DNA from: Mobula hypostoma
Lineage: Eukaryota
Reading direction: 5' to 3'
Assembly: GCF_963921235.1 (NCBI RefSeq)
Contig: NC_086097.1
Span: forward strand, 135,472,001-135,536,000
Length of the DNA: 64,000 nucleotides
Shown: piece after piece, positions 6,050 through 29,539 of the stretch
Layout: the number at the start of each line of letters is the position of its first letter
Numbering within the stretch: position 1 is the first letter of the stretch
Position numbers and translations under genes: made by a program
Notes under the pieces: generated by a model
Told to the model about the DNA's origin: nothing
The model's input: the letters and a program-made list of their open reading frames with translations, nothing else
The model's database searches: none

Positions 6050-7069
6050 GTTTATTCTTTTCCATAGATGGTATCAGACCTGCTGAGTTTCTCCAGCATC
6101 TTGTGTGTCACAATAAACCCGATTCCAAAGAAGACTTAAATATTAGGAGGTACCAGAAACTTACTGTTTCAATTTAATAAACAAAATGTCACTGCTTTTC
6201 TACATCGGCACTCCTGTTCAGTATTCAAAGATTGCCTAGAAGTTTGGAAAATTTTGTATTAAGATTTCAGCTCAGCCTTGAACATTTGAAAAGGAAGATG
6301 AATGTTAAAGCCAAGAGCCAAATGAAAGCAGAAAGGTGGACACAAACAAAACACCGGAGGAACTCAGCAGGCCAGGAGCGTCTATGGAAAAAGAGTGAAC
6401 AGTCGACGTTTCGGGCCGAGACCCTTCTTCTGGTAGACACGCGGTTCCTTTGGCAAGTCAGAGCAGAAGGGATATGGCAGCGTGGTGAAATGCATGGGGA
6501 GTTGGTGCTGTTTGCACTCGAAAAGATAATGCTGCTGTTCAGGCCAATAAACTTCCGAAACTATGGAAGCACTGCAGATGAAGATGTTTCAGTTGTAGGG
6601 GTGCAGAAGGCCAGTACTGAGTGTCTAAAGCATAATCATTAATCATCTTCCACGGAATTCTGCACTCCAGAAGGCCGTGGGGGCTCAGTGTTTCATCTCA
6701 GTCTGATAATTAGCCATTAAGGGAAACAAGGGATACAGGGTCAGTGCAGGAAGGAAAAGCTGTGATAAAGGATCTTAATTGAACGATGGATCTGGCTTAA
6801 GGGTGTCAAATACACAAAAATTAGCTCTGTTGAATCCCAACTCAGAAAGAACAACTTGTTACTTACACAGGGTAGTGGAGGCAATTAACACAGGAGCATT
6901 TGAGGGGAGGTTAGATAAACACACGAAGGTGGAAGATGGCAGACTACCATTTGCCAGAGGTTCTTTAAGAATGATGAGAGGGACTGCCATGAAGGTAAAG
7001 GTGGAAATGAACCAGATTCGGACAATATTTCTCTAATATAATTGGGTACTAAAACTACAATGAGATGAA

Positions 7070-7530
7070 GCTGTTGGTATTATTAAACCAGCTGACCAGC
7101 TACATCATGGCTTCGTATGGAACTCCAATGCACAGGAACACTAGAGGCTACAGAGAGTGGTGGGCTCAGCCAGCTGCGTTGTGGGTACAGCTCTTCCCAC
7201 TAAGGACATCTACAAAGGGTTGACGTTTCAGGAAGGTGACATCTATCATCAGGGTAGGAAGTGAAGGAGCTCAAAGACCTACTCCTCGTTCAAAAAGTTT
7301 CTTCTCCACTGACATTCGGTTCTTGAACGACCCAAAAAACTCTAATTCTACCTTGAACGACATTTCTTTCCCTTCCTCAATCTTGTACTTGTGTCATTTG
7401 TCCTTTCTTGCACGGGTGTAAATTATAAGTGACTTGTGTTTGTTCTCGTCTTGTAATACACTGGGCTGATGCAGCTAAGAGCTCACTTTCAAGGCACTTA
7501 CTATGGATAGCTATGACAACAAACTTGCAT
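7070..7530 (+). mobile_element. Degenerate Rex/Babar-type LINE 3' fragment
   Basis: Remnant of the C-terminal region (..rLQRVVgsA..i.G..LP) and 3' UTR; a similar fragment lies at about 4170-4440. Confidence 0.6.
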
Positions 7531-7644
7531 TGCTGATTTTACTATAAAACTGGTGTAAAACTTGATTATTATGAGATGGGAAGCTATTTGGTCTCGTGCA
7601 TTCCTATACCTCTTCTATTTTGCATTTCTCTGTAATGTATTCTG

Positions 7645-7726
7645 CAGGGGTTCCCAACCTGGGGTTCACTGACCCCTCGGATAACAGTCAAGGTCCATGG
7701 CATGAAAAGAAGACTTGGAATCCCTG
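7645..7726. mobile_element. hAT MITE, same family as 28-109
   Basis: caggggttcccaacc...ttggaatccctg; a third degenerate copy lies at about 48737-48787. Confidence 0.75.
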
Positions 7727-8134
7727 CTTTAAAGGCCCATCAACACGCCTTTGATCCTTGTTCCAATTGCCTACATTACAGGGTTATATACGATTTAGAT
7801 AAACCACTTTTATGTTGGCACAGAAGAGGGTGAGTCTGGCTCTGTTGAAGTAAACCAATCCACCTGCTACACAAAAAAAAAAGGTTAATATAATTCTGTG
7901 TTTCCAACACAAAACAGCCCATGTTGAGACAAAGCTGCTGATGGACTTCATGTTCAACATTACTTTGGTGCAGTTCCGATCACTCACGGATATCACAAAC
8001 TTACGCTGAACTGCACTTTGGTAATGCATAGGTGACGTAACAGTACAGGAGGAACAGAGCACAAGATCAAGATGGCTGTGATAAATGCTAGAAACTCAGA
8101 GTCTGCCTCCACTCTGCTTGCCCTCAATATACTA

Positions 8135-8945
8135 CAGTGGATTCCCGTTAACTGGAACGCATTGGGACCAGTACATTTTGGCCCCATGAAGTGCTGCTCT
8201 TTTTAGCTAGTTTCATGGAAAAGGTTAAAAAGGTATAAAAAGACAAACTACTATTTAACTAAGTAACAAATTATATATTTAAATGAAATACAGAACAGAT
8301 TAGAACACTATCAATACTACTACAATAGTATTAGTGTACAGAATTATAAAACTGTATTAGTTCCAAATAGTTAGATATGGAAGAATTCATCCAGTCGACA
8401 CTGAAGTGTTCTTTTGATTAACTGTAAATTAACAAAATTAGTGCAGACATCTAGTGCAGATAATGGATTGCCTTCATACAATGCTTTAAATGATTACATC
8501 CTCCAAATCCTTTTCACCATAACATTCAAGGTGATTGTCGATACCTCAAAATTCATCGTAGTTCCTAACTTGAAGTAGTAAAATTGTTTCACATTCACTC
8601 CCAGCCGTTCCTTGCACCTCTAAGCCTTAATGCTTGAAACTGCAGTGAGCAAAAAGTCCTGAATTGTCTTTCTGCTTATTTCTCACCAACTACTAATGAC
8701 AAAATCCACTTCTCTTTGAAGTAAACACATGCAACTGACACTATTTAAAAACTATACACTCTAAGCACAGTGTAGTGTCTAATGACCACAAAAGTGCACG
8801 TGACTGACGCTAGTTAGAAACTGTTTAGTGACAGCGTCCTGTCCCACTTAAGCAGCATCATGTTCCAAATAAACAAAGGGAATCCGGGCTATTTTCTCAA
8901 TTGATTTTTGTTGTTTAAAAGTTGCCCATTAACCAGAATCTACTG
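8135..8945 (-). mobile_element. Non-autonomous Tigger-like DNA transposon inserted in a pseudo-exon
   Basis: TIRs cagtggattcc / gaatctactg; TA duplication at 8133-8134 and 8946-8947. Confidence 0.85.
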
Positions 8946-9469
8946 TATATTTTACTGAATTTCTGAACTCCACAAATGAAGGACTGCAATTAACAGCATC
9001 ACCTGACAACCGGAGATACCATTTAATTTCAAATCAGTGCCAGACCAAAGAGGATTGCAGTGATATATGCAACAGAAAAGTTTTAATAACCTATATTTTG
9101 TGATCTTTACATTTGGGGGTTATCAGAATTCTCCACCTTCTTTTGGTTAATATTAAACTGGCCGATTCAAAGTTGTATTGGCGTATTATAGAATCTTACA
9201 GCAATCCATTGCATTGATTCTAGGGCTTCGAATCAGTCAAGTGCTATTGAGTTGGTGATTAACTGACCAGCTCTCTCACTGAGTTATGTTTTACCAACAA
9301 TTTTCTCTTGCTACTGCAGAGACACTTGAGCAGAGAAAGTCAAACAGTACTATTCTTTTCTCATACACTAATAAACATTCTTTTCCTGTAATAGAAACAT
9401 AGAAACATAGAAAATAGGTGCAGGAGTAGGCCATTCGGCCCTTCGAGCCTGCACCGCCATTTATTATGA

Positions 9470-12400
9470 TCATGGCTGATCATCCAACTCAGAACCCAGC
9501 CTTCCCTCCATACCCCCGACCCCTGTAGCCACAAGGGCCATATCTAACTTCCTTTTAAACATAGCTAATGAACTGGCCTCAACAGTTTGCTGTGGCAGAG
9601 AATTCCACAGATTCACCACTCTCTGTGTGAAGAAGTTTTTCCTAATCTCGGTCCTAAAAGGCTTCCCCTCTATCCTCAAACTGTGACCCCTCGTTCTGGA
9701 CCTCCCCAACATCGGGAACAATCTTCCCGCATCTAGCCTGTCCAATCCCTTTAGGATCTTATACGTTTCAATCAGATCCCCCCTCAATCTTCTAAATTCC
9801 AACGAGTACAAGCCCAGTTCATCCAGTCTTTCTTCATATGAAAGACCTGCCATCCCAGGAATCAATCTGGTGAACCTTCTTTGTACTCCCTCTATGGCAA
9901 AGATGTCTTTCCTCAGATTAGGGGACCAAAACTGCACACAATACTCCAGGTGTGGTCTCACCAAGGCCTTGTACAACTGCAGTAGTACCTCCCTGCTCCT
10001 GTACTCGAATCCTCTCGCTATAAATGCCAGCATACCGTTCGCCTTTTTCACCGCCTGCTGTACCTGCATGCCCACTTTCAATGACTGGTGTATAATGACA
10101 CCCAGGTCTCGTTGCACCTCCCCTTTTCCTAATCGGCCACCATTCAGATAATAATCTGTTTTCCTATTTTTGCCACCAAAGTGGATAACTTCACATTTAT
10201 CCACATTAAATTGCATCTGCCACGAGTTTGCCCACTCACCCAACCTATCCAAGTCACCCTGCATCCTCTTAGCATCCTCCTCACTGCTAACACTGCCACC
10301 CAGTTTCGTGTCATCCGCAAACTTGGAGATGCTGCATTTAATTCCCTCATCCAAGTCATTAATATATATTGTAAACAACTGGGGTCCCAGCACTGAGCCT
10401 TGCGGTACCCCACTAGTCACCGCCTGCCATTCTGAAAAGGTCCCGTTTATTCCCACTCTTTGCTTCCTGTCTGCTAACCAATTCTCCACCCACACCAATA
10501 CCTTACCCCCAATACCGTGTGCTTTACGTTTGCACACTAATCTCCTGTGTGGGACCTTGTCAAAAGCCTTTTGAAAATCCAAATATACCACATCCACTGG
10601 TTCTCCCCTATCCACTCTACTAGTTACATCCTCAAAAAATTCTATGAGATTCGTCAGACATGATTTTCCTTTCACAAATCCATGCTGACTTTGTCCGATC
10701 ATTTCACCGCTTTCCAAATGTGCTGTTATCACATCCTTGATAACTGACTCCAGCAGTTTCCCCACCACCGACGTTAGGCTAACCGGCCTATAATTCCCCG
10801 GTTTCTCTCTCCCTCCTTTTTTAAAAAGTGGGGTTACATTAGCCACCCTCCAATCCTCAGGAACTAGTCCAGAATCTAACGAGTTTTGAAAAATTATCAC
10901 TAATGCATCCACTATTTCTTGGGCTACTTCCTTAAGCACTCTGGGATGCAGACCATCTGGCCCTGGGGATTTATCTGCCTTCAATCCCTTCAATTTACCT
11001 AACACCACTTCCCTACTAACATGTATTTCGCTCAGTTCCTCCATCTCACTGGACCCTCTGTCCCTTACTATTTCTGGAAGATTATTTATGTCCTCCTTAG
11101 TGAAGACAGAACCAAAGTAATTATTCAATTGGTCTGCCATGTCCTTGCTCCCCATAATCAATTCACCTGTTTCTGTTTGCAGGGGACCTACATTTGTCTT
11201 TATCAGTCTTTTCCTTTTTACATATCTATAAAAGCTTTTACAGTCCGTTTTTATGTTCCCTGCCAGTTTTCTCTCATAATCTTTTTTCCCCTTCCTAATT
11301 AAGCCCTTTGTCCTCCTCTGCTGAACTCTGAATTTCTCCCAGTCCTCAGGTGAGCCACTTTCTCTGGCTAATTTGTATGCTACTTCTTTGGAATTGATAC
11401 TATCCCTAATTTCTCTTGTCAGCCACGGGTGCACTACCTTCCTTGATTTATTCTTTTGCCAAACTGGGATGAACAATTGTTGTAGTTCATCCATGCAACC
11501 TTTAAATGCCTGCCATTGCATATCCACCGTCAATCCTTTAAGTGTCATTTGCCAGTCTATCTTAGCTAATTCACGACTCATACCTTCAAAGTTACCCCTC
11601 TTTAAGTTCAGAACCTTTGTTTCTGAATTAACTACGTCACTCTCCATGTTAATGAAGAATTCCACCATATTATGGTCACTCTTACCCAAGGGGCCTCTCA
11701 CGACAAGATCGCTAATTAACCCTTCCTCATTGCTCAAAACCCAGTCCAGAATAGCCTGCTGTCTAGTCGGTTCCTCGACATGTTGGTTCAAAAAACCATC
11801 CCGCATACATTCCAAGAAATCCTCTTCCTCAGCACCTTTACCAATTTGGTTCACCCAGTCTACATGTAGATTGAAGTCACCCATTATAACTGCTGTTCCT
11901 TTATTGCACACATTTCTAATTTCCTGTTTAATACCATCTCCGACCTCACTACTACTGTTAGGTGGCCTGTACACAACTCCCACCAGCGTCTTCTGCCCCT
12001 TAGTGTTACGCAGCTCTACCCATTTCGATTCCACATCTTCCCGGCTTATGTCCTTCCTTTCTATTGCGTTAATCTCCTCTCTAACCAGCAACGCCACCCC
12101 ACCTCCCCTTCCTTCATGTCTATCCCTCCTGAATATTGAATATCCCTGAACGTTGAGCTCCCATCCCTGGTCACCCTGGAGCCATGTCTCTGTGATCCCA
12201 ACTATATCATAATCATTAATAACAATCTGCACTTTCAATTCATCCACCTTATTACGAATGCTCCTTGCATTGACACATAAAGCCTTCAGGCGCTCTTTTA
12301 CAACTCTCTTAGCCCTTTTTAATGCTTGCCCTGGATTTGTCGGCCTGCCACTTTTACTTTTCTCCTTTGTACTTTTTGCTTCTACGCTCACTTTACACCC

Positions 12401-12487
12401 CTCTGTCTCTCTGCACTGGTTCCCATCCCTCTGTTGTGAACTAACCTCCTCACACCTAGCCTCTTTAATTTGATTCCCACCCCCCAA
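9470..12487 (-). CDS. CR1 ORF2: apurinic endonuclease plus reverse transcriptase
   Basis: 1005-codon ORF with EN motifs (NARS, ITETW, YRPP, GDFN, SDH) and RT motifs (KSPGPDG, YRPVSL, DFQKAFD, GVPQGSVLGP, FADD). The annotated start is TTG, not ATG. A probable 1-nt deletion alters the last ~15 codons. Confidence 0.95.
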   Translation of the reverse strand: MGGGNQIKEARCEEVSSQQRDGNQCRETEGCKVSVEAKSTKEKSKSGRPTNPGQALKRAKRVVKERLKALCVNARSIRNKVDELKVQIVINDYDIVGITETWLQGDQGWELNVQGYSIFRRDRHEGRGGGVALLVREEINAIERKDISREDVESKWVELRNTKGQKTLVGVVYRPPNSSSEVGDGIKQEIRNVCNKGTAVIMGDFNLHVDWVNQIGKGAEEEDFLECMRDGFLNQHVEEPTRQQAILDWVLSNEEGLISDLVVRGPLGKSDHNMVEFFINMESDVVNSETKVLNLKRGNFEGMSRELAKIDWQMTLKGLTVDMQWQAFKGCMDELQQLFIPVWQKNKSRKVVHPWLTREIRDSINSKEVAYKLARESGSPEDWEKFRVQQRRTKGLIRKGKKDYERKLAGNIKTDCKSFYRYVKRKRLIKTNVGPLQTETGELIMGSKDMADQLNNYFGSVFTKEDINNLPEIVRDRGSSEMEELSEIHVSREVVLGKLKGLKADKSPGPDGLHPRVLKEVAQEIVDALVIIFQNSLDSGLVPEDWRVANVTPLFKKGGREKPGNYRPVSLTSVVGKLLESVIKDVITAHLESGEMIGQSQHGFVKGKSCLTNLIEFFEDVTSRVDRGEPVDVVYLDFQKAFDKVPHRRLVCKRKAHGIGGKVLVWVENWLADRKQRVGINGTFSEWQAVTSGVPQGSVLGPQLFTIYINDLDEGIKCSISKFADDTKLGGSVSSEEDAKRMQGDLDRLGEWANSWQMQFNVDKCEVIHFGGKNRKTDYYLNGGRLGKGEVQRDLGVIIHQSLKVGMQVQQAVKKANGMLAFIARGFEYRSREVLLQLYKALVRPHLEYCVQFWSPNLRKDIFAIEGVQRRFTRLIPGMAGLSYEERLDELGLYSLEFRRLRGDLIETYKILKGLDRLDAGRLFPMLGRSRTRGHSLRIEGKPFRTEIRKNFFTQRVVNLWNSLPQQTVEASSLAMFKRKLDMALVATGVGGMEGRLGSELDDQP

Positions 12488-12492
12488 CCATT

Positions 12493-13452
12493 CTAGTTTA
12501 AAGTCACCTCAGTAGCCCCCGCTAATCTCCCTGCCAGGATATTGGTCCCCCTAGGATTTAAGTGTAACCCGTCCTTTTTGTACAGGTCACACCTGCGCCA
12601 AAAGAGGTCCCAATGATCCAAAAACTTGAATCCCTGCCCCCTGCTCCAATCCCTCAGCCACGCATTTATCCTCCACCTCATCGCATTCCTACTCTCACTG
12701 TCGCGTGGCACAGGCAGTAATCCCGAGATTACTACCTTTGCGGTCCTTTTTCTCAACTCCCTTCCTAGCTCCCTATATTCTTCTTTCAGGACCTCATCCC
12801 TTTTCCTACCTATGTCATTGGTACCTATATGTACCAGGACCTCTGGCTCTTCACCCTCCCACTTCAGGATATCTTGGACACGATCAGAAATATCCCGGAC
12901 CCTGGCATCAGGGAGGCAAACTACCATCCGAGTCTCTGGACTGCGTCCACAGAATCGCCTATCTGACCCCCTTACTATCGAGTCCCCTATCACAACTGCC
13001 CTCCTCTTCCTTGCCCTACCCTTCTGAGCTACAGGGCCAGACTCTGTGCCGGAGGCAGGGCCACTGTCACTTCCCCCGGGTAAGCTGTCCCCTCCAACAG
13101 TACTCAAACAGGAGTACCTGTTGTTAAGGGGCACAGCCACCGGGGTACTCCCCATCACCTGCCTTTTCCCCTTCCCCCTCCTAACCGTGACCCACTTGTC
13201 TGCCTCCCGTGGCCCCGGCGTGACCACCTGCCTTCCACTCCTCTCTATCACCTCCTCGCTCTCCCTGACCAGACGAAGGTCATCGAGCTGCAGCTCCAGT
13301 TCCGTAACGCGGTCCCTTAGGAGCTGCATCTCGATGCACTTGGCGCAGATGTAGACGTCCGGGAGGCTTGGAGACTCCAGGGCCTCCCACATCCGACACC
13401 GAGAACAGCAAACTGCCCTCACAGTCGTAATGCCCCTCTCCTCAAATAGCAA
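12493..13452 (-). CDS. CR1 ORF1: zinc finger/leucine zipper plus SGNH esterase domain
   Basis: CxxC..CxxC (CSRC, CAKC), coiled coil LRDRVTELELQL, and esterase blocks VIGDS, HIGTND, DGLHL. Start codon uncertain (TTG at 13452; ACG may be a mutated ATG). Confidence 0.92.
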   Translation of the reverse strand: MLFEERGITTVRAVCCSRCRMWEALESPSLPDVYICAKCIEMQLLRDRVTELELQLDDLRLVRESEEVIERSGRQVVTPGPREADKWVTVRRGKGKRQVMGSTPVAVPLNNRYSCLSTVGGDSLPGGSDSGPASGTESGPVAQKGRARKRRAVVIGDSIVRGSDRRFCGRSPETRMVVCLPDARVRDISDRVQDILKWEGEEPEVLVHIGTNDIGRKRDEVLKEEYRELGRELRKRTAKVVISGLLPVPRDSESRNAMRWRINAWLRDWSRGQGFKFLDHWDLFWRRCDLYKKDGLHLNPRGTNILAGRLAGATEVTLN

Positions 13453-14329
13453 CAGAAAATGAATGTCAAACCTTCCTCGCCTCGCCCGCTTCTGCCTAAG
13501 CCCGGTGAGCCAAAGCCCTTAAGTCTTCACTCTGCTCCCGGCTCACTCCGCCGCCCGCAAACTACGCTGCCCGCTCTATGAGGCTCTGTTCCTTTTAAAT
13601 CTGCCGCGCTGCACTGCCCAACGTCACACGCCTGCGCAGTCCCGCCTCTCAGAAAGCCGTTGGAGAAAAAAACATAACGAAAATTTCAAAAATCTCTTTC
13701 TCGGCACTCCCACTCAGACTCTCAGACTCCTTCTTCGAATCAAATCCGAAGCAGGATGTCTGCCCTTTTAATCTTGCATTTTTCTGTTGAAAGTTTCTAA
13801 CAAAGCCATTTTCAAAATCCTCCCTGGCAGTAGAATCATAACTTAGATAAAGTTTCTGTGCAAAAGCTCCTCTTGCTATTTGTGATCAACACATTACAAT
13901 TGTAAACCACTGCCTCATCTACCCAACAAAACCAAAAATAATTTGAAAGGCCTTTATCAGGACCCCTTAACCTTTTCTGTTTCAAGGAGAATATGATCAG
14001 ACATTTCCTGTCACTCACACTTCACTAAATATCTGTATCCCTCACAGATCTGCGAATCCTTCCTAAAATTCAATGCCCAGAAATGAAAAAAGTACTTCAG
14101 CTGAGATCGAACAAGTGTTTTACAGAGCACTTCCTTGCTTTTACTTCATGAATTAAAGGTAAAACATACACATTCAATAGCTATCAAATTGTCTAGTCAT
14201 TTTCCATGGAGAGGAAACTTCTTTTCTATGGCACCTTATGGAACACCTGATTTTCTGCCAATGAAGTATTTTGAAGATTACACAAGAAACTGCAGATGCT
14301 AGAATTTGCAGCAACACACAGAACAGAAT

Positions 14330-15600
14330 CAGGTTAAATATCACGTTATGAAATTCGCTGTTTTGTGGCAACAGCACATTGCCATACATGATAAATAAAA
14401 CTAGTTACAATAATATAAATATAAAAAATTAAATAAGTTGTGCAAAAAGAGCAAAAAAAGTGACATAGTAAATTGTCCATTCAAAACTCTGATGGTGGAG
14501 GAGAAGAAGCTGTTCCTAAAATGTCAAGGGTGTGTCTTCAGGCTCTGGTACCTCCTCGTTGATGATAGCAATTGGAAGAGGGCATGTCCTGGGTGATGGA
14601 GGTTCCTAACAATGGATGCTGACTTTTTGAAGAATCATCTTCTGAAGATGACCTCGATGCTGGGGGTGGGTGGGTGGGTGGGGGGCAGTACTAGTACTCT
14701 TGACAGAGCTGGATGAGTTTACAACCTTCTGCAGCTTCTTCCAAACCTGTGTAGAGGCTCCTCCATACCAGACAATGATGTAACCAGTTAGAAATTTGCA
14801 AATGTCTTTGATGACATCCCAGTCTCCTCAAAATCTTAATGAGATATAACCTCTTTGTAACTGCATCAATATGTTGGACTTAGGATAGATCTTCAGAGAT
14901 ACTGACACCCAGGAACTTGAAACTGCTCACCTTTCCACCGCTGATCCCTCATTGAGGACTGGTGTGCATTTGCCTGGACTTCCCCTTTCTGAGGTCCACA
15001 ATCAATTCTTTGGTCTTACTGACATTGAGTACAAGGTTGCTGCTACAACACCAATCAGGCAGCTGATCAATCTCACATCAGTATGCCTCCTCGTTCCCAT
15101 CTGAAATCCTGCCAACAATAGTTGTGTCACTGGCAATGGTGTCTGAGCTGCACCTAAGCACACTGTAATAAGTGTGTAGAGAGTAGAGCAGTGGGCTAAT
15201 CTCACATCCTTGAGGGGCAATGTTGTTGATCGACAGTGAACAGATGTTATTTCTGATCACAATGATTGTAGTCACCCAATGAGGAAGTCAAGGATCCAGG
15301 TGCAGAGGGAGGCACAGAGGACCAGGTTCTGGAGCTTGTTGGTTAGAACTAAGGGTATGATTGTGTTGAGTGCTGAGCTGCAATCAATAAATAGCAGCCT
15401 GACATAGGTATTGCTGCTGTCCAGGTGGTCAAAGGCTAAGAGGGGAGCCAATGAGATTGCATCTGCTATAGACCTATTGTGGTGAGAGGCAAACTGCAGT
15501 GGGTTCAGGTGTTGCCTCTTGACCAAAGCATTCATCTTAGCAGATATGACTGCATCTGGGCTGCTCATCCTGCTCTTTTTGGGCCCTGGTGTGACTGTTG
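14330..15600 (-). mobile_element. Degenerate Rex/Babar-type LINE (RT 3' half)
   Basis: [29 protein letters not shown] and DTTIVGRIS remnants. Confidence 0.85.
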
Positions 15601-16294
15601 ATTATGAAAGTACAAATGATGCCCTTTTAAACCGGAAAGAACTGTGGAGTGGAAACTTCACTTCAGTTTTACAGCTAGTGCGAATATTTGATAAACTTGA
15701 CGTAACGAAAGCTTAGTTTTCTTAATGTTCTAATTTAGTGAAGAAATAGCACATTTTAGAAAATCAGTCAGTGCTAGACAGCCACGTGGTTTAGAAAAGC
15801 AATCCCATGACTTGTGTTAGAATCTGCAGTCCTCCCCTCACTCTTCATTCCAATATGCCTGCAGGCACTGGTATCAACCTCCCCCCACACATTCCTGCTA
15901 GATTCTGCCTCTGCTGCCCCCCTCCCTGCCAACAATAATGTGCAACCTCTTACTTGATGGGTGCCACAGTAATAATTGTTCACATCTCCTGGGTCCCTTT
16001 TAAACCTCCTTCCACAAATCTGTAGTGTCTAGCTTTAGACACACTGATGAAGGGCAGACTCTGCTTATTTACCCGACTGATTTTATGTACTGTTATCATA
16101 TCACCTCTCATGCTCCTTTGCTCCAGAGGAAACAGGCCCAGTCTGTCCAATCCTTCCTGATACTCAAGCCCTCTAACCTAGGCAACACCTTCAAAGATTC
16201 AAAGTATATTAATTATTCAGGTATGTATGCAGCATACACCCCTGAGATTTGTCTTCCCCACAGACAATTCAACCAGTGTCAAAAAGATCAAAGA

Positions 16295-16648
16295 AATGTT
16301 TTAAGCAGCAGCCTTTTGACAGTCAACGCACTTAGTGTGAAGAAGCGTTCAAACTCTTCATCATTATCTTGGCATTAACTGGCAAAATATTATGTTATTT
16401 AATGGATGAGCTTTGATTTTGTTGATAGCAGGTATTCCAAGAGTCATGCTTGAAACAGATCAATGGCTAAGGTTTTGGCTGTGAGATGTTGCTGATGAAT
16501 TACCCAATGGATTGTGAACAGACTTTGCAATTTCTTTTTTCATAAATGCCACTAAACCAGCATGGCAATCTGTCATATATGGTGCTCTATCTGTTGCACA
16601 AGAGATTGTGGTCCTACTTGGAATACTTTTACCCTCTATATACCTTTT
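16295..16648 (-). mobile_element. hAT (Charlie/ZBED5-type) transposase internal remnant
   Basis: Minus strand gives DRAPYMTDCHAGLVAFMKKE, IHWVIHQQHL (decayed CxxH) and DNDEEFER...R*LSKG (RW motif). Confidence 0.8.
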
Positions 16649-17569
16649 GAGCTTATTGCACGCACGTCAGACTCGGGAACATTGCTTCACGTGTTGGAGC
16701 CCTGTGTTCCGTACTTTAATCCAGTTCGAGGCTCGTGAGCAGAGTACAGAAACTTTTACCTCAAATCTGGAAAAACTCATTTTCCTTCTGCAAGATAGTC
16801 CCAACATTTCTGGGATTACCTTCCACAATAACTACCCCTCTCATTTAAATTGCATATAAATCCTTGACTTTGGCAGACGGTTCCTCCCCTCCTTTGGCTG
16901 GTAACTTCTCCTCTCCCTACCCACTGATCATTTAGTAATCCAACAGCAGAGAACTCGCTCCATTTAGTGGCAAAATAGCAAAGCAGAACCCCAAGATGTT
17001 TCTAAGATGCACACGCTTACTTCACAGAAATAAAACTTAAGCATAAACCAGTTTTGGTTTGCTTCCAAAAGCCAACGCTTGAAAATGAATTTTTTTTTCT
17101 GCGGCACAGTAGAACTGCAGTGTCTGCTCAAAACAAACAGAAAAAAAATCACTGGTATACAACTACAGTCACGTTTCTCTCGATATCTCAATCAACATCC
17201 TTGATTAAGAGAGTGTCAAAGGGGTCTGAAACTAATGCTTACCACTGAGGACAGATTGCCTTGAACCCACTGCAGTGTTCCAACTGCTTATTGTTGATGC
17301 ATAATAACTACCTTTTGTTTCTGCAAAAGACTCTGTTCAAAGGTCTAAACTTGCCCTTCAATTCCTTGAAAAACTCCATTTACTTTCCAGAGCTCAAGCT
17401 TTCTATTTTGGCTAAGTAATGAAAATAACGAGACAACTACATTTGATAAATATTGTCCTTGGAATTCTGAGCAGCAAGGTTGTCTTGATTTTAAAGAACT
17501 ATGATTTTCATCTTCATCCCAATTGCATTAGATTTGGCTGAAAAGCTATCGACCAGGATCCGAACTTGA

Positions 17570-17880
17570 AAGGATCTTCAACAAACGGTGCCTCAAAAAG
17601 GCAGAGTCCACCATCAATGACCCCCATCACCCAGGACATGCCCTCTTCTCATTGTTACAATCAGAAAGGAGGTACAGAAGCCTTAAGGGACACACTCAAT
17701 GATTTAGAAACAGCTTCTTCCCCTCTGCCATTCAATTTCTGAATGGACATTGAACCTATGACCACTACCTCAATATTTTATTTCTGTTTTCGCACTATTT
17801 ACCATGTATTTCATTGTACTGCTGCTGCAAAGTTAATGAATTTCACTACGTATGCCGGTGATATTAAACCTGATTTTGAA
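17570..17880 (+). mobile_element. Rex/Babar-type LINE 3' end
   Basis: DPHHPGHALFSLL.S.RRYRSL..HTQ.FRNSFFPSA. Confidence 0.8.
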
Positions 17881-20159: not shown

Positions 20160-20660
20160 AGAAATCTTTCGCTGTGGGCCCGAAGACCCGAGTCTTTGCA
20201 ATCTTTGGACACGGAGCTCGAAAAAAGCAACAAAACGGACTTGCAACATTGAACAACAACCCACTGGTTTAATGTCTCCCACTCGCTGTGAGAATGGGTG
20301 ACACCTCCCTCTCCCTTACCAGGGAGAGAGAACACCTGTGGTTTGTTCGAATGTCGGATGAAATGCGAAGCCTTTGGGGCAAATTTGGTCAGTGTCTTTG
20401 CTATTGCTTAGCACACACTTGGGCTCGGTGACAGTACCGATGCACTTTTCTCTGCTGGTGGGGGAAGGGGGGATTGTTGCTTGTTGCCGCTTATGCGTGA
20501 GGGGGGGAACTGGGGGTGGGGGGGGACTGGGGCTCTCACTTTAACTGTCGTTCATTCTTTGGGGCACTCCTCTGTTTTCGTGGATGTTTGCGAAGAAAAA
20601 GCATTTCAGGATGTATATTGTATACATTTCTCTGACATTAAATTCGACCTTTCAACCTTT
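20160..20660 (+). repeat. Non-coding interspersed repeat (probable non-autonomous LINE-dependent element)
   Basis: Homologous to about 19040-19340 and 28165-28400 (shared gtggatgtttgcgaagaa...tttcaggatgtatattgtatacatttctctgacattaaa). Confidence 0.65.
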
Positions 20661-21259
20661 GAAAGCTTGTCACCATTTTGGCAAGAAAAGTCTGGACAAG
20701 AAATGGGGCCTTGCCTACACTGTATTGTCACCAAATTCAGAGAAGGTTGGACGAGGTCCAAGGGTCAGGAGAACATCTAATACAAATACATCTTTGCAAG
20801 CTTAGTGAAACGTGATTAACATTTCAGAGTGGGAGTGGGACAGAGAGACAGAGAGCAATGGAGGGAGACTTCTTATCTTATAAGATAGAAACAACAAATA
20901 CAATCACTTCTAAGTTGCAGAGCCTTCATCTCATGATTACTGGATAAACCAAGGTCTGTGTCTATTACAAAAACTTGTGGGATTTTTTAAACCAATATTT
21001 TAGGAATTAAAGTTCAAGTGCAAGCTTAATTGTCATTCAACCATACATGAATACAGCCAGACAAAACAGCGTTACACTGGGGTCAAGGGGCAAAGCACAG
21101 TACAAACAGTCATACACAACACAAGGCACACAGGGCACATATAAGACAGCAGTAAAATAGTCACACACAAAACAAAATTATCCAAGTTCCTGAATCGATC
21201 AGTGTTGCAGCAGTCTGCAGTTGAACACAATACAACAAAAAAAACACTAGACTGCTCTG

Positions 21260-22075
21260 TTTTGGACAATTTTAGACCCATTTCCAAACTTCCTTTTCTA
21301 TTAAGATTGTGTCCTTTCATTTAAGAAACATGGAAGGAGTTTGATTTCTTACAACATCTCAAGATGCAGAAAATTGACACACTTTTGTTTTTAGATGATT
21401 AGACTACTGTAAAGTACTCTTTTCGGGACTGCCTAAGAAAGGTATAAACTGGCCGCAACTTGTTCAAAATGCAGCAGCAAGAATCTTAACAAAAGAAAAT
21501 CTGAGCAATTTCACAGGTTTTGGCATCATTACATTAACTGTATACCAGACTGAATAATCTAGCTCCCCCATATATTTCGGAGGGTCTATACCCTTACATT
21601 CTGACTCATAATCTTAGATCCACAAATACTGGTTTGCTTAGTGTTCCTAGAGCCAAGCATACAAGAACTGCAACACACATCAGAGTTGCTGGTGAACACA
21701 GCAGGCCAGGCAGCATCTCTAGGAAGAGGTGCAGTCGACGTTTCAGGCCGAGACCCTTCATCAGGACAAGAACTGGTGGTGTGGCCTTTTGCTCTTAAGC
21801 ACAAACAGTCTGGAACAGTCTACTGAGATACATCAGGCTAGTACTCTGGAATGTTGCAAAACATTTCTATAAACCTACATTTTTTAATTTCGCCTACTTA
21901 GAGGATCACTTACTGCCTGTTGATGTTGATTACATTTATATAATTTGGTAAATTCAATTACATTTTATTCCATATAATCTTTTAATTTTGACTCACATCT
22001 TTATGACTACTTTGATTTATCTTTACAATCTTTGTAAAGCAATTCGAGCCTGCATCTTAATGTATGAAAGCCACC
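21260..22075 (+). mobile_element. Degenerate, internally deleted L2-clade LINE
   Basis: LDNFRPISKLPFL and RLDYC..LFSGLP...QLVQNAAARILT. Confidence 0.75.
21671..21765 (-). mobile_element. Short Penelope terminal-repeat insertion with intact hammerhead core (21734-21767)
   Basis: Perfect 10-bp TSD acaagaactg (21661-21670, 21766-21775); minus strand reads gtc-CTGATGA-agggtctcggcct-GAAACGTC-gac. Confidence 0.85.
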
Positions 22076-22798
22076 TACTAAATTATCATCTTGTCTTCTG
22101 CTGAGCGAACACTGGAGGGCAGCACTGACTCCAGCATGGACGCCGTGCCACACAGCCTCCCGTGGAGTGCACTGACTACAATGCTTTTCTCCTGGGCCGC
22201 TGTAACAGGCGACACAGCGGTTTGAGGCCTGGTCATCACTATGACTGAGGCCATGCAGCCCTCGTTATTCACCAATAAAACAGTGAATTGGACTTGCAGC
22301 CTTCCACATTGCCAATATCCAACAGGGTCTTACAAACACAAGAAAGGCAACTAAGAACATCTTTCGCTGCACACTGGCTTTGCCTCTCTGACGCAAGCAG
22401 CAGCATGATCTGCCCCATGTCCAGTTCCTTCAGTTTCTCCGCCAACGAGCAGCTCCACGACGAGGTAGACCTGAGGTACTCTACGTCCTTGATATCCAAC
22501 AATCTTGAAACCATAACATTTTTTAAAAAAAGACAATTTAACACCTTTGGTTGGCGGTAGAAACCGCTGCTTTTATGCTTACTGGAAGTAAGTTGTTGTT
22601 GCTATCAGTATCAGTAAATAACTTTGAATGTTATAACATCCAAAGGCTTAAGCCCTGAAAAGTTCTGAATGTCTGCTCATCTGCAGCACACCCAGTGGTT
22701 GGATATTTATGATAGGTAATAGAAATCCGTTTAAATTGCTTGACTCAATACTTTTACCACAATGGGGCATGATCTACCAAGGGAGAGGGCTTGGGGAA

Positions 22799-23078
22799 GT
22801 GTGGTGCATGGCCAAGTGGTTAAGGTGTCAGTCTAGTGATCCGAAGGTCGCTGGTTGGAGCCTCAGCTGAGGCAGCGTGTTGTGTCCTTGAGCAAGGCAC
22901 TTAACCACACATTGCTCTGCGACGACACCGGTGCCAACCTGTATGGGTCCTAGTGCCCTTCCCTTGGACAACATCGATAGCATAGAGAGGGGAGACTTGC
23001 AGCATGGGCAACTGCCGGTCTTCCATACAACCTTGGCCAGGCCTCAGTTAATATCGAAAATTGATGGACAGCCGAAGA
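22799..23078 (+). mobile_element. tRNA-derived SINE (second family, CORE-like central box)
   Basis: A box tggccaagtgg, B-box-like ggttggagcc, gtccttgagcaaggcacttaac; 15-bp TSD agagggcttggggaa (22784-22798, 23079-23093). Confidence 0.9.
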
Positions 23079-23649
23079 AGAGGGCTTGGGGAATTAAGAA
23101 CCCGAGAGCCTGGTGCTCCCAAGCACTAAAATAAAAAATTAAGTCCTTTTGCTTCAATTGGGTGAGCAGACAAAACCAATGACTTAGCTAAACAATTACA
23201 CCAGCTTTGGCATTAGATATAATGCTTTACTTTGGCACCATTTCTATTTTCTATTGTGATCCTGCAATACCAGTCAGCATGGAACTCAATGGGATTACCG
23301 GCCAGTGGGTTATGTATCACCTACACATCCTACCCCGCTTACAAACTCCCAATTTATGTACATACAAGTGTTTGAGACCGGCACAAAATTGCAAATATCA
23401 TCTGCTGTGTGGGGATTGGGTGGCAGCCGTATCCCTGACTTGCAAAAACTGTTCCGGTTATGAACAGTTCACAAGGACAGAACTTTACCATTAGATTAGA
23501 TTAGATTACCATGATTACCATGACCAGGGAGTAATCTCTACGGAGGACAGACAATGATCAGGGGAAAGTATAAAGCCCTCTCATCATAAGGAGTGCTTGC
23601 CTGCTCTTTCTCCTACAAAAAGAATGAAGTAACAAAGAAAATAAAACTC

Positions 23650-24362
23650 ACTACCAGTCTGAGCACCAAACAGTCCTTCCAGGTGAGGCGACACTTCAGT
23701 TGTGCGCCTGTTAGGGTCATCTACTGGGTCCGGTGCTCCTGGTGTGGCCTCCTGTGTGTTGGTGAGACCTGACGCAGATTGGGAGACCACTTCGTTGAGC
23801 GCCTGCGCTCTGCCTGCCAGAAAAAGCGGGATCTCCCAGTGGCAAGCCACATCAATTCTACTTCTGGTACGTCTCTCCATGGCCTCCTCTACTGCTGCGA
23901 TGAGGCTACACTCAGGTTGGAGGAGTAACACCTTGTATTCCATCTGGGTAGCCTCCAACCTCATTGCATAAACATCGATTTCTCAAACTTCTAGTAACTG
24001 ATCCCCCCCCCCCAACCATTCGCCATTCCCATTTCCTTACCTGCCCATCACCTCCCACTGGTGCTCCTCCCCACTTCCATGTCCTTCTGTCCTCTCCTAT
24101 TAGATTGCCTCTTCTCTAACCCTTCATCTCTTTCACCAATTGACTTCCCAGCTCTTGATTTCACCCTTCCTGTTTCACCCATCACCCCCCCGCCACCTTC
24201 ATGTCTGACTTTTCATCTCTTTTTCCAGTCCTGATGAAGGGTTTCAGCCTGAAACGAAGACTGTTTACTCTTTTCCATAGTTCTGCCCGGCCTGCCGACT
24301 TCCTCCAGCATTCTGTGTGTGTTGCTCTGATTTCCGGCATCAGCAGATTTTCTCTTGTTTGA
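23650..24362 (+). mobile_element. Penelope-like element 3' fragment
   Basis: GVIYWVRCSWCGLLCVGET.RRLGDHFVE (GIY-YIG); terminal repeat with a mutated hammerhead at 24226-24263. Confidence 0.85.
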
Positions 24363-24489
24363 AAATAAAACTTTATTCAGCTAAATCACACCAGCGGGTG
24401 GCATAGAGATGAACTGTGATATGGAAATGAATTGTAAATATTTTTAAGCAAAACACAGGTACAGGATGTCACTTGGTTATGAACCGATT

Positions 24490-25050
24490 CAAAACAGGTC
24501 AGCAGCAGACACCCGTATCATTGGCCCTTCACTCATCTCTGGTACACTTGGACAGCAAAGGTGCATACATCAGGATGCTCTTTATTGACTGCAGTTCAGC
24601 ATTCAATGCTGCCATCCCCTCAAAGCTAATCAATAAGTCCCAACACCTGGGCCTCAACACCTCCCTGTACAGCTGGATCCTTTATTTCCTCACTTGCTGG
24701 CCCCAGTCAGCACAGATGGTCAACAACATCTCCTCCACCAATCAGCATCAGTGCAGGTGCACCACGAGATACTGTGCTTAGCCCCCTGCTCTGCTCACAT
24801 TATACCTGTGACTGTGTGGCCAAGCACAGCTCCAATGCCATGTTTAAGTTTGCTGACAACACCACTGTTGCTGGCTGAATCAAAGGTGGTGGTGGATCGA
24901 CATACAGGAGGGAGATTGAAAATCTGGCTGAGTGGTGCCACAACTACCACCTCTCACTCAATGTCAGCAAGATTATTATTGTCTTCAGGGAGGAGGAAAG
25001 CAGAGGTCCATGAGCCAGTCTTCACTGGGGATCAGAGGTGGAGATTTAAA
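24490..25050 (+). mobile_element. Rex/Babar-type LINE RT fragment
   Basis: [21 protein letters not shown] and KFADNTT. Confidence 0.8.
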
Positions 25051-25129
25051 GTCAACTACTTAAAATGTCATGACATTATTTATATCGGAGGGCCATCACA
25101 AAGGCGTACACCAGTATCTCCACTTTGAG

Positions 25130-28050
25130 TAAAGGACCCGAGGGGGACCAATATTCTCAGGGGCAAGCTTGTTAGAGCTGGTGAGGAGGGTTTAACTAAT
25201 TTGGCTGGGGGGTGGGAACTGGAGTGAAGGGTCTCAGAATAGGATGGATGGTTTTAAAAAAAGCAAAGATAGGGTGCAGTCAGACTGCTGGGAGGGCAGG
25301 CAGACGATGGACAAAATTGCAGCCAGCAGGGTGAGTATCAGTGCATTAAGATGCAGAATCAAAAAGGGTAGCAAATGCAGTACTCAAAGTGTTATATCTC
25401 AATGCACAGAGTACAAGAAATAAGGTGGATGATCTTGTTGCACTATTACAGATTGTCAGGTGTGATGATGTGGTCATCACTGAATTGTTGCTGAAGGATG
25501 GTTGCAGTTGGGAGCTGAATGTATTGGCGGGATGGGAAGGTAGGCAGAGGGGGTGGCGTGGCTCTGCTGGTAAAGAATGGCATCAAATCATTAGAAAGAT
25601 GTGACATAGGATTGGAAAATGTTGAATTGTTGTGGGTTGAGTTACGAAACTGCAAGAGAGAAAGGACCTTGATGGTAGTTATATACAGGCCTCCCAACAC
25701 TAGCTGGGAGGTGGATCACAGATTACAACAGGAAATAGAAAAGGCTTGTCAAAAGGGCAAAGTTATGATAGTCACGGGAGATTTTAACATGCAGGTAAAT
25801 TGAGAAAATCAGGTTGGTAATGGATCTTAACAGAGTGAATTTGGTGAATGTCTACGAGATGGCTTTTAAGAGTAGCTTGTCGTTGAGCCTACTAGGGAAT
25901 TAGCTATACTGTACTGGGTATTATGTAATGAACTGGAGGTGATTAAGGAGCTTAAAGGTAAATAAACCCTTAGGAGGTAGTGATCACAATATTATTGAGT
26001 TCAACTTGAAATTTGATAGGGAGAAAGTAGTCTGATGTAGCAGTATTTCAGTTGAGTAAAGGAAATTACAGTACGAGAGAGGAGTTTGCCAAATTAAATT
26101 GGAAGAAGATGGTGGCAGGGATGAAAGCAGACTAGCAATGGCTTGAGCTTCTGGGAAAAATGAGGAAGGTGCAGGATAGGTGTATTCCAAAAAGAAAGAA
26201 ATACTCAAATGGCAAAATAGTACAACCATGGCTAAGGAGGGAAGTCAGAGATAATGTAAAAGCAAATGAGAGGGCATACAACAAAGCAAAAAATTAGTGC
26301 GAAGACAGAGGATTGGGAAGCTTTTAAAACCCTACAGAGAGCAACTAAAGTATCATTAGGAGGGAAAAGATGAAATATGAAAGCAAGCTAGGAAACAATA
26401 TCAAAGTGGATAGTAAAAGCTTTTTCCAAGTGTGTAAAAAATGAAAGAGAGATGAAAGTGGATATAGGACCAGTAGAAAATAAGGCCAGAGAAATAATAA
26501 TGGGGGCCAGGGAGATTGCAGATGAACTAAGTGAGTATTTTGCATCAGTCTTCACTGTGGAAGACACTAGCAGTGTGCCAGGTGTTGAAGGGTGTGAGAG
26601 AAGAGAAGTGAGTGCAGTTACTATAAGGAGGGAGAAGGTGCTGAAAAGACTGAAAGACCTAAAAGTACACAAATCACCAGGAACAGATAAACTGCACCCC
26701 AAGGTTCTGAAAGTAGAGATTGAGATTGTAGAGCAGTAGAGATTGTGGTGGCATTAGAAATGATCTTTCAAAAATCACTAGACTCTGGCATGGTTCCGGA
26801 GGACTAGAAAATTGCAAATGTCACTCCACTCTTCAAGAAAGGAGGAAGGCAGCAGAAAGGAAATTATAGACCAGTTAGCCTGACCTCAGTGGTTGGGAAG
26901 ATGTTGGAATCAATTTTTAAGGATGAGGTTATGGAATACTTGGTGACACAGGAAAGATGACATGGTTTCCTTAAGAGAAAATCTTGCCTGACGAACCTGC
27001 TGGAATTCTTTGAGGAGATTACAAGTAGGATAGATAAAGGGGATGCAGTGGATGTTGTAAGTTTGGACTTTCAGAAGGCCTTTGACAAGGTGCCACACAC
27101 CAGGTTGCTTACCTAGTTAAGAGCTATGGTATTACAGGAATGTTACTAGCATGGTTAGAGCAGTGGCTTGATGGGTAGGAGGCAGTAAGTGGGAATACAA
27201 GGATCTTTTTTCTGTTTGGCTGCCAGTGACTAGTGGTGTTCCACAAGGGTCAGTGTTGGGACTGCTGCTTTTTATGCTGTATACCAATGGTTTAGACAAT
27301 GAAACAGATGGCTTTGTTGCCAAGTTTGCAGATGATATGAAGATTGGTGGAGGGGCAGGTAGTGTTGAGGAAACGGGGAGCCTGCAGAAAAACTTAGATT
27401 AGGAAAATGGGCAAGAAAGGGGCAAATGAAATACAATGTTGGAAAATGCAAGGTATGCACTTTGGTAGAAGAAATAAATGTGTACACTATTTTCTAAAAA
27501 TGGAGAAAATCCAAAAATCTGAGATGCAAAGGGACTTAGGAGTCCTCATGCAGGACACCCTAAAGGTTAACTTGCAGGTTGAGTTGATGGTGGTGAAGGC
27601 AAATGCAATGTTAGCGTTCATTTAAAGAGGTCTGGAATACAAGAACAGGGATGTGATGCTGAGGCTTTATAATGCACTGGTGAGGCCTCACCTTGAGTAT
27701 TGTGAACAGTTTTGGGCTCCTAAACTAAGAAAAGATGTGCTCGCATTGGAGAGGGTCCAGAGGAGATTCACAAGGGTGATTCCAGGAACGAAAGGTTTAT
27801 CATATGAGGAACGTTTGATGGCTCTGGGCCTGTACTCGCTGCAATTTAGGAGGATGGGGGGGGGATCTCATTGAAACCTTTTGCATGTTGAAAGATCTTG
27901 ACAGTAGATGTGGAAAGGATATTTCCCATGGTGGGGTAGTATAGGACAAGCGGGCACAACCTCGGGATAGAGGGGTGTCCATTTAAAACAGAAATGCTCA
28001 GAAATTTCTTTAGCCAGGGGGCAGTGAATTTGTGGAATTTGTAACCACAG
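25130..28050 (+). mobile_element. Degenerate CR1 LINE (ORF1 end through ORF2)
   Basis: LYLNAQSTRNKVD, YRPPN, GDFN, KSPGTD, FADD and LVRPHLEYC, with many stops and frameshifts. Confidence 0.92.
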
Positions 28051-29539
28051 GGAGGAGGGAGCGATTGTATGAGATACCAAAGTGATGAATCATGGACTGT
28101 AGCTTTCAGAACCAGAATCAGGTTTATTATCACCAGCAAGTGATGTGAAATTTGTTAACTTGTTTTGATGGACTCTGATTCAAGATCTCTTTGGAAGACT
28201 TCTGCTGTTGCTTGCAAGGTGGGGGGGGGGGGCACGTTGGTATTTCTGTTGTCACGAGTGTGTATGGGGGAGGGAGACCGGGGCTTTGATGTTTCCATCA
28301 TTCATTCTATGGGGCTTCTTGTTTTCGTGGATGCCTGTGAAGAGTAGGAATTTCAGGTTGCATACTGTACACATTCTGATATTATAAATGAACCTTTGAA
28401 CACTTGCACAATCATATAGGTTGTCAGTCTTTATGTATGTTCTCAGAAAATAAAGAAAATATTTCTTTATTTTTCTGTAAATGGCTGCAAGAAACTGAAT
28501 ATATATATTTCAGTTTTTTTGACATTGACAACACCTGATTATGGACAGATACCAGTACATATCAACAAACTCCCATAAAACTAAGTTTAAAATTTTGATA
28601 TACGTACAATCATTCCTATGAACAGTAGAACTCCTCTCTCTCTCGCCCCGTTTTAGTAATTGTTTTCTCTTTTTGGTCTAGTGTGCTTTTTATACCATGT
28701 ATTATCATTCTGAGATTCTGAGGGGGTTTTATTTGTCATATAGAGTGATTTTGGTGTATTTGCCGACTTTCAGACAAAATCAACTTGAAGATGACTGCAA
28801 GAACAGCCTGTTCATTACCAGGTGATGGACTGTAACAAGATGTTGAATAATATGGCGTTGGAAAAATGGTTTTCTGGACCACCACTGCTAACGTGCAGAA
28901 CTCATGACTGAAGGGTTTTGGACTCGTGCTTAATCTGACCCATGCCTGATCATTTGGTACTAAGATGAGTAAATGCATTCAATATTAATGCTGCAGATGG
29001 TGCTGACAAAGCAACGCATCACCTGACAGTTGTCGAGTGAGTTGTTTTATAGACAACTCCATCTGCACAGTATAGCTGATGTCAATAGGGTTCACAAGCA
29101 GCCTTAACAAGTGAATAAGAGAAAAAGGTAAATAAGATGAGGACCTGCCCTGAAGTTAAATCAAAGTTTGCCAATTAGCTTTTTCACTCAAAGCAGGCAA
29201 GCATGAGCTCAAATATGGACAAGCGACTGACTGGATCTGAGGGCCTCTAAGTATATAAGAGTGACGCAGCCACAGTGGATAGCCGGAGACTTTTACCCCA
29301 GGGTGTACTGCAAGTGTCAGATATTAGTTGGCATAAATTTTAGGGTTGTGGGGAAAGTTTAAGGTAGAATTACAATTAAGTCTTTTCCCCGAAATACAAA
29401 TTGGTAGGTGCCTGAATTGTGCTGCCAGGGGAGGTGGTGGAAACAAATACAATACTACTATTTAAGGAGGATTTAGGCAGGCACAATGACAGGCAAGGAA
29501 TGGAGGCACATGAACCATGTGCAAGCAGATGAGATTGAA

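What the first reader, a model, noticed from the sequence alone, without database searches (positions are those of the whole stretch)
6435..29022. Hidden fossil gene: a transposon-shattered CCDC142-like pseudogene with recoverable exon structure
Seen: the unique DNA between repeats carries minus-strand exon remnants with splice sites, stops and frameshifts. Their translations match, in the right order, motifs I recall from human CCDC142: QIMLLLASERQSQCAA ~ RVLRLLTGERGCQVA; FQGQY ~ LWSQY; LQNTSL...*KRSFLSMEND ~ LQTTLL...WDPASFLLLIQKD; KRRWRILITPK ~ GRYWRLRLCPE; LLRHLCITKVQFS ~ WLDHILTHGIRFS; RIKGVLMGL ~ QLDGALLCL; EVYWPEQQHYLFECKQHQLP..LPYPFC ~ EGYLVGNQQAWLALRQHQRP..LPFFSC. Each match is weak alone; the collinearity and exon boundaries carry the argument. 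Inference: a divergent CCDC142 family member, probably an old paralog, was lost in this lineage and now lies within an intron or UTR region of the transcript from the 58-kb promoter. ORF-based annotation would miss it.
Basis: partly seen in the sequence, partly recalled or inferred. Interest (0 to 1): 0.8.

Follow-up and report, generated by a model that had tools for sequence, protein, structure and literature searches.

The report
Possible CCDC142-like gene relic in ray
A transposon-riddled stretch, likely inside the first intron of a ray's ZHX2 gene, holds a few worn exon-like pieces that may be the remains of a dead CCDC142-like gene; one of the seven claimed pieces is a common repeat and no search confirmed the family, so this is about an even bet and an ordinary kind of gene loss if true.

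Summary
All nine quoted peptides are on the minus strand, in the stated order. The supporting argument mostly fails. The best-ranked match (22,412-22,365) lies in a high-copy dispersed repeat. The finding's seven motifs sum to 117 at the claimed sites, below the best ordered chains in shuffled windows (160±7). No Pfam, atlas, PDB or protein search returned CCDC142, and no CCDC142 sequence could be fetched.

What survives is the 9.2-7.7 kb cassette. Removing an 813-nt TA-flanked transposon and a 108-nt GT-AG intron gives 90 open codons. Two motifs end at donors, and a strong acceptor follows. Such anatomy arose in 3 of 100 shuffles. Anchored motif scores were reached by 4 of 16,150 decoys, which is not enough proteome-wide unless recalled human intron positions also agree.

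Verdict: decayed CCDC142-like relic 0.5, chance 0.38. No spliced RNA was seen. The host gene is likely ZHX2.

The parts
28770..29062 (-). Weak AGs at 29062 and 29022; 2-6 stops per frame. No tool evidence that it is an exon.
   Evidence: Pfam negative
25130..28040 (+). Decayed LINE (label from recall), similar to the 9.4-13.7 kb element
   Evidence: self-BLAST; ORFs
22090..22560 (-). 5' part of a high-copy dispersed repeat. It contains the claimed first 'exon' (22503-22273) and motif 1 (22412-22365). Not part of any gene relic.
   Evidence: depth profile; (another copy is exonised in M. hypostoma LOC134346664)
21005..21232 (-). 3' part of the same repeat, separated from the 5' part by an 857-nt insert (21233-22089)
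   Evidence: joint 21232-22090 (depth 204 in X5, 507 in X20)
17348..17527 (-). Low-copy 60-codon open frame holding motif 2 (score 10; 795 sites in the window score as well). The frame ends beside a weak GT at 17350. Candidate exon, weak.
14172..14279 (-). Motif 3 piece: 4 stops in 36 codons, no good acceptor, abuts a SINE end at about 14280. Candidate exon, weak.
9406..13745 (-). Near-intact LINE (1012-codon and 341-codon ORFs) lying between the 14.2-kb and 9.1-kb pieces
   Evidence: high depth
9111..9195 (-). Candidate exon A, 3' part: 28 open codons ending in motif 4 (score 26; 3 sites in the window score as well), then a phase-1 GT at 9110. A weak AG at 9225 would make it 115 nt with 2 stops.
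8948..9002 (-). Candidate exon B, 5' half, after a 108-nt GT-AG intron (9110-9003), phase-compatible with exon A
8135..8945 (.). DNA transposon with terminal inverted repeats and a TA duplication (Tigger/mariner-like, label from recall), inserted into candidate exon B. Element plus one TA = 813 nt. Second copy near 2.1-2.8 kb. The left junction is also in organism B.
   Evidence: X6 contig 7648-8253
8005..8134 (-). Candidate exon B, 3' half, ending in motif 5 (score 18) directly before a GTAAGT donor at 8004. Rejoined exon B is 185 nt, phase 1 to 0, with no stop.
7729..7863 (-). Candidate exon C after a 141-nt intron and the strong acceptor at 7863. Holds motif 6 (score 15). 4 stops in the motif's frame. 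Followed by a MITE at 7645-7726.
6434..6588 (-). Candidate last exon D: 51 open codons with motif 7 (score 22; 10 sites score as well), ending at a SINE (6340-6433)
57800..58400 (-). CpG-rich promoter-like region with strong minus-strand donors at 58160 (8.8) and 57814 (9.7). Likely the non-coding first exon of ZHX2 (inferred).
   Evidence: no protein hit; neighbour notes; PMC7144352

Best explanation
The pieces from about 17.5 kb down to 6.4 kb are likely the decayed exons of a long-dead, strongly diverged CCDC142-like gene that likely lies in the first intron of ZHX2, on the same strand, while the 22.4-kb piece is a transposon and not part of it. Shown: a TA-flanked DNA transposon interrupts an otherwise open frame, a MITE and a LINE sit beside or between the pieces, and the 14.2-kb and 7.8-kb pieces carry stops. 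Inferred: the gene stopped making protein, then collected these insertions. It is now copied only as intron of the host transcript and spliced away. It has no protein function. The best-kept trace is the A-B-C cassette at 9.2-7.7 kb; the 14.2-kb, 17.4-kb and 29-kb pieces are much less certain.
For: Removing 813 nt (element plus one TA) and the 108-nt GT-AG intron gives 90 open codons that start in exon A and end exactly at the 8004 donor. The next acceptor is among the 3 best of 2228 unmasked minus-strand AGs. With thresholds set to these values and introns up to 300 nt, such a cassette occurs once on the real minus strand, not on the plus strand or in reversed sequence, and in 3 of 100 shuffles. 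Motifs 4 and 5 both end at the cassette's donors. Random 750-aa decoys reach their trimmed joint score (50, worked out by hand) under the same anchoring in 4 of 16,150 cases, and the three-segment score (65) in 27 of 16,150. Recall only, no call: human CCDC142 has introns after the ends of motifs 4 and 5 in phases 1 and 0, with a 179-nt exon between them and a 115-nt exon before. The window gives 185 nt, phases 1 and 0, and an AG that would give 115 nt. If that recall is right, the expected number of chance matches across a proteome falls to roughly 0.05 or less (my estimate). X5 contigs cross the putative exon borders unspliced.
Against: No call returned CCDC142. Pfam gave 0 of 20, 0 of 18, 0 of 30 and 0 of 148 queries, including trimmed exons and long read-throughs (no positive control was available). 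The word search on 8133-7720 gave 0 of 223 candidates. The atlas and PDB gave nothing usable. The seven motifs sum to 117, against 159.6±6.8 for their best chains in 60 shuffles and 164 on the plus strand. Random decoys reach 128-202. Without the recalled intron positions, the rates imply about 5-100 equally good matches among 20,000 proteins. With introns up to 2 kb the cassette appears in 43 of 100 shuffles, and its two-exon part in 34 of 100 even with short introns; thresholds were tuned after the fact. Stop-free runs of 73 or more codons are common in unmasked DNA (22 minus, 32 plus). The 14.2-kb piece has more stops than background (4/36 against 5.5%), which sits badly with a 90-codon open frame nearby. 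The neighbourhood is not that of human CCDC142.
Confidence: 0.5

Rival explanations
1. There is no gene relic. The region is ordinary repeat-filled intron, and the peptides are chance look-alikes picked with a remembered protein in mind.
For: Motif scores and order are at or below chance. Motif 1 is a repeat. One 'acceptor' is a transposon end. All family and homologue searches were blank. Exon-like candidates of similar strength occur elsewhere in the window (6 minus, 3 plus) and about 3 per shuffled strand.
Against: In-frame rejoining across the transposon, compatible phases, two motifs ending at donors and a top-ranked acceptor all fall within 0.6 kb of excised sequence. The recalled exon sizes and phases agree.
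Confidence: 0.38
2. The 9.2-7.7 kb cassette is the relic of some other, unidentified protein gene, and the CCDC142 resemblance is chance.
For: The anatomy needs no homology. Earlier notes on this genome report several similar unidentified relics (unchecked).
Against: No other family scored above a Pfam cut-off, apart from reverse transcriptase in a LINE. The anchored motif scores are unusual for a given protein.
Confidence: 0.08
3. A living, very divergent gene or short coding isoform that is spliced around the insertions, with the stops being assembly errors or mis-set borders.
For: 90 open codons after excision. X5, guessed to be RNA, covers the unique stretches.
Against: The transposon sits inside exon B and its junction is shared with organism B. 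X5 contigs reproduce the stops at 7.7-7.9 kb and run unspliced across borders and through presumed introns. None of the 15 listed joints links the pieces (5075 were not shown).
Confidence: 0.04

Closest known systems
CCDC142 (human, chromosome 2, next to MRPL53; function little known, PMC13500973, 12 passages seen; fly orthologue CG13842, PMC7198581, 1 passage seen)
   Same: Short motif resemblance as quoted in the finding. By recall only, similar intron positions, phases and exon sizes around motifs 4-6.
   Different: No profile or sequence search linked the window to it. Motif scores are 10-27 raw BLOSUM62, or -1 ungapped for motif 3. The pieces are broken by stops and insertions. Neighbours are of the ZHX1/ZHX2 block, not MRPL53.
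Unprocessed (unitary or duplicated) pseudogenes of vertebrates (class definition recalled)
   Same: Exon-like pieces with GT-AG borders, stops, and transposons inserted in and between them.
   Different: No parent or orthologue has been demonstrated, which the class requires. The divergence is at the edge of detectability.
Mobula hypostoma LOC134346664 (XP_062904264.1 and isoforms; P0001-P0003)
   Same: Its C-terminal part matches 22502-22272 (41/83 identical), 22258-22190 and 21234-21136, i.e. the repeat in its uninterrupted form.
   Different: It is another copy of the repeat read as a last exon by an automatic gene model. It has no confident Pfam family and no link to CCDC142.

Membership tests
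CCDC142 family | Match to the family's Pfam profile (recalled as PF14923) | tested here: not met
   No hit for single pieces or stop-read-through stretches. HMMER drops matches weaker than about E 0.1. No CCDC142 protein was available as a positive control, and the spliced product was not scanned.
CCDC142 family | Significant similarity to a CCDC142 protein | tested here: inconclusive
Word searches are insensitive: one search missed P0001 at 53% identity. The finding's motifs score at chance level unanchored and at P 2e-4 to 5e-3 per protein anchored.
CCDC142 family | Shared intron positions and phases | not testable with these tools
   Agreement at 9110 and 8004 and a 185 versus 179 nt exon rest on recall of the human gene only.
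CCDC142 family | Synteny with a known CCDC142 locus (orthology) | tested here: inconclusive
   Unchecked earlier notes place ANXA13, ATAD2/ZHX1 and FAM83A/TBC1D31 509, 279 and 177 kb before the window. The gene list in the Fig. 1 legend of PMC7144352 has no CCDC142. Human CCDC142 lies beside MRPL53.
Unprocessed pseudogene | Exon-intron remnants beyond chance | tested here: inconclusive
   3 of 100 shuffles with short introns, 43 of 100 with introns up to 2 kb.
Unprocessed pseudogene | Disabling lesions that are real sequence | tested here: met
   Transposon inside exon B; stops in exon C confirmed by X5 contig 7622-7937; element junction shared with organism B.
Unprocessed pseudogene | An intact parent gene or orthologue exists | not testable with these tools
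   No genome held; no homologue retrieved.
Dispersed repeat (22090-22560 plus 21005-21232) | High copy number across the genome and in related species | tested here: met
   1857 contigs laid in X6 and 2771 in X14 on 751 nt; depth hundreds of times the flank; another copy in M. hypostoma.

The most novel reading that the evidence does not exclude
Jawed vertebrates once had a second, fast-evolving CCDC142-family gene nested in ZHX2 intron 1. It is dead in this ray lineage and may survive intact in some sharks, skates or chimaeras, where it has not been described.
Probability: 0.3. Interest if true: 0.45.

Novelty: new member of a known kind. Interest (0 to 1): 0.22.

Why it matters
If real, it records an undescribed member of a family whose function is little known (PMC13500973), at a locus described as stable from elephant shark to human (PMC7144352). 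It would add one more gene loss to this ray chromosome segment. It opens no new mechanism. The practical lesson is firm: a CpG-rich open frame in a common ray repeat mimics an exon, and another copy has been annotated as protein in M. hypostoma. Searches for 'ccdc142' (40 papers, 30 listed), 'ccdc142'+'shark' (1 unrelated paper), the full gene name or 'paralog', Mobula+genome+pseudogene and unitary pseudogene+cartilaginous (0) showed no report of such a paralog or loss, judged from listings and abstract starts.

Tried and rejected
No whole genome is held, so a separate intact CCDC142 could not be sought.

Family and homologue searches. Pfam: 20, 18 and 30 queries, plus 148 of the 273 non-repeat ORFs (those of 58 aa or more); 15 of the 148 gave hits at E 0.0009-0.1, all below cut-off. 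Word-based protein searches on 22278-22517, 57813-57992 and 8133-7720 gave 0 of 37, 0 of 191 and 0 of 223 candidates. ESM Atlas gave nothing at 0.9 or above. PDB gave only weak unrelated hits (E 0.02-1.8). Rfam gave 0. Metagenome contigs gave 0 of 375.

Runs. No RNA holder is listed on record. X5 and X20 are guessed to be RNA, and X5's even cover may be DNA, so expression is untested. The lack of X20 cover in unique stretches is not counted as evidence. The small word shares of organisms C-J probably come from the repeat (seen for the two that were laid) and are not counted as conservation.

A generic splice scan found no convincing coding exon of a host gene in the window. The cassette count used a mis-set excision and is superseded; the last part crashed. 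I rejected the CpG richness of the 22.4-kb piece as a coding sign once it proved to be a repeat. By-eye resemblances at 29 kb, 17.4 kb and 14.2 kb were judged too weak to count. Folding was not tried: the stop-free pieces are 28-60 aa and have no alignment. No supplements were read.
Full report
Setting. The window is CpG-depleted vertebrate DNA, about 43% GC, with a CpG-rich patch near 58 kb. My mask covers 29,685 of 64,000 nt. An earlier unchecked note calls the genome a devil ray, and the only protein hit was from Mobula hypostoma. Repeat class names below are from recall; Pfam confirmed only reverse-transcriptase pieces.

Observation. All nine peptides are present on the minus strand in the stated order. 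Stops are real: 4 in 36 codons at 14279-14172 and 4 in 45 at 7863-7729. Contigs of another sample (X5) reproduce 6425-7091 and 7622-7937 without substitutions.

The first 'exon' is a repeat. phmmer of 22278-22517 against 1.84 billion representatives gave one hit, P0001 (E 5.4e-7, 53%), an uncharacterised M. hypostoma model. It matches 22502-22272, continues through a frameshift to 22190, and jumps to 21234-21136. High-depth contigs make the same jump, 21232 to 22090. At fine scale, summed depth over 22404-22455 is 1635-2008 in X6 (flank 2.42) and 11592-17777 in X14 (flank 21). It is 417 and 2214 at 22378-22403, and 58 and 346 at 22352-22377. The tool warns that depth is not copy number, but 1857 and 2771 contigs were laid on 751 nt. 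The window copy also lacks six codons relative to P0001 in the middle of the motif, so part of the resemblance likely comes from a copy-specific deletion. Motif 1 was one of the two best-ranked motifs, and it is spurious.

Similarity and order are not above chance. Scored ungapped at the claimed sites, the finding's seven motifs give 27, 10, -1, 26, 18, 15 and 22 (sum 117). The numbers of window sites scoring as well are 2, 795, 5371, 3, 32, 102 and 10 of about 127,900. Motif 3 needs a gap and is undervalued by perhaps 15 points. The best ordered chain of the same motifs is 161 on the minus strand, 164 on the plus strand, 168 in reverse order and 159.6±6.8 in 60 shuffles. Random decoys give 128-148 with almost no choice of segment and 175-202 with choice (12 each). 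No Pfam, word-index, atlas, PDB or metagenome search returned CCDC142. These negatives are soft: there was no positive control, one search missed P0001, and the spliced product was not searched.

What survives. An element at 8135-8945 has terminal inverted repeats and a TA duplication. Removing it with one TA (813 nt) restores a frame. Splicing the 108-nt GT-AG intron at 9110-9003 then gives 90 open codons from 9195 to 8005. Motif 4 ends at the 9110 donor and motif 5 at the 8004 donor. After 141 nt comes an acceptor that ranks in the top 3 of 2228 unmasked AGs, then the piece with motif 6, a MITE at 7645-7726, and at 6588-6434 a 51-codon frame with motif 7. With thresholds set at the observed values, this cassette is found once on the real minus strand, not on the plus strand or reversed DNA, and in 3 of 100 shuffles; with introns up to 2 kb, in 43 of 100. 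With segments anchored at the two donors and kept near one diagonal, random 750-aa decoys reach the two-segment score of 50 in 4 of 16,150, the three-segment score of 65 in 27 of 16,150, and the five-segment score of 104 in 12 of 2,450 (thresholds worked out by hand from the finding's motifs). That would be significant for a protein named in advance. For a protein picked from about 20,000, it leaves 5-100 chance equals.

What tips it to an even bet is recall, not a call. I remember human CCDC142 having introns after the ends of motifs 4 and 5, in phases 1 and 0, with exons of 115 and 179 nt. The window offers phases 1 and 0, a 185-nt rejoined exon, and a weak AG at 9225 giving 115 nt. If true, about 3e-8 per placement times about 10 placements and about 1.6e5 internal exons (recalled figure) gives roughly 0.05 expected chance matches or fewer. 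Against this, the best-conserved part should have been visible to a family profile, the 14.2-kb piece is as stop-rich as random DNA, and long open frames are common here.

Host and expression. Strong minus-strand donors lie at 58160 and 57814 in the CpG-rich patch. The frame ending at 57814 has no protein relative, and no coding exon or RNA family was found elsewhere. Unchecked notes put ANXA13, the ATAD2-ZHX1 gap and FAM83A/TBC1D31 at 509, 279 and 177 kb before the window. PMC7144352 (passages seen) says ZHX1 and ZHX2 are tightly linked in a stable region from elephant shark to human; its legend lists ATAD2, DERL1, FAM83A, HAS2 and TBC1D31. By recalled human order and orientation, the next promoter facing this way is ZHX2, with non-coding first exons and long introns. 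This is inference. Human CCDC142 lies on chromosome 2 beside MRPL53 (PMC13500973, passages), so synteny gives no support. X5 covers unique stretches evenly and unspliced, inside and outside the claimed exons. None of the 15 listed joints links them, and 5075 joints were not shown. This fits intronic pre-mRNA or DNA and proves neither.

Mechanism and verdict. Most likely (0.5) a strongly diverged CCDC142-like gene in ZHX2 intron 1 died and was then broken up by insertions. The exon B insertion predates the split from organism B, whose contig 7648-8253 runs into the element. It makes no protein. Chance pattern 0.38, relic of another gene 0.08, living gene 0.04. It is not filed as a CCDC142 member because the profile test was not met. 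If real, it is a new example of an ordinary class, so interest is low.

Noticed in passing
window 21005-21232 and 22090-22560; P0001-P0003: A roughly 700-nt high-copy repeat, present in all four runs laid, has a CpG-rich open stretch. Another copy forms the C-terminal part of the M. hypostoma model LOC134346664, where the match starts at the same point as the AG at 22503. This is either exonisation or an annotation artefact. The family was not classified.
   Followed up: partly
window 9406-13745: Near-intact LINE with open frames of 341 and 1012 codons on the minus strand, probably young.
   Followed up: no
window 57800-58400: CpG-rich promoter with two strong minus-strand donors (58160, 57814), a GTCACGTG box near 58255 and a plus-strand GTAAGT near 58308. 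Possibly bidirectional, or with alternative first exons.
   Followed up: partly
window 8135-8945 and about 2105-2769: Two copies of a TA-targeting DNA transposon; the one at 8.1-8.9 kb is shared with organism B.
   Followed up: partly
window 7645-7726: Short MITE whose two 8-nt flanks do not match, possibly from an adjacent deletion that removed the rest of candidate exon C. Related copies lie at the window start and near 48.7 kb.
   Followed up: no
window 29022 and 9002: Both candidate acceptors share the same 13 bases around the junction (TGTCAG|GTGATGC); unexplained, probably chance.
   Followed up: no
window 44597-44249 (minus), 20121-19943 (minus): Other exon-like candidates pass the same splice and open-frame thresholds as exon B, with no family hit.
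   Followed up: no
window 35400-36900: By eye, an AT-rich decayed stretch with short inverted ends that may be an old DNA transposon; no Pfam hit in its ORFs.
   Followed up: no
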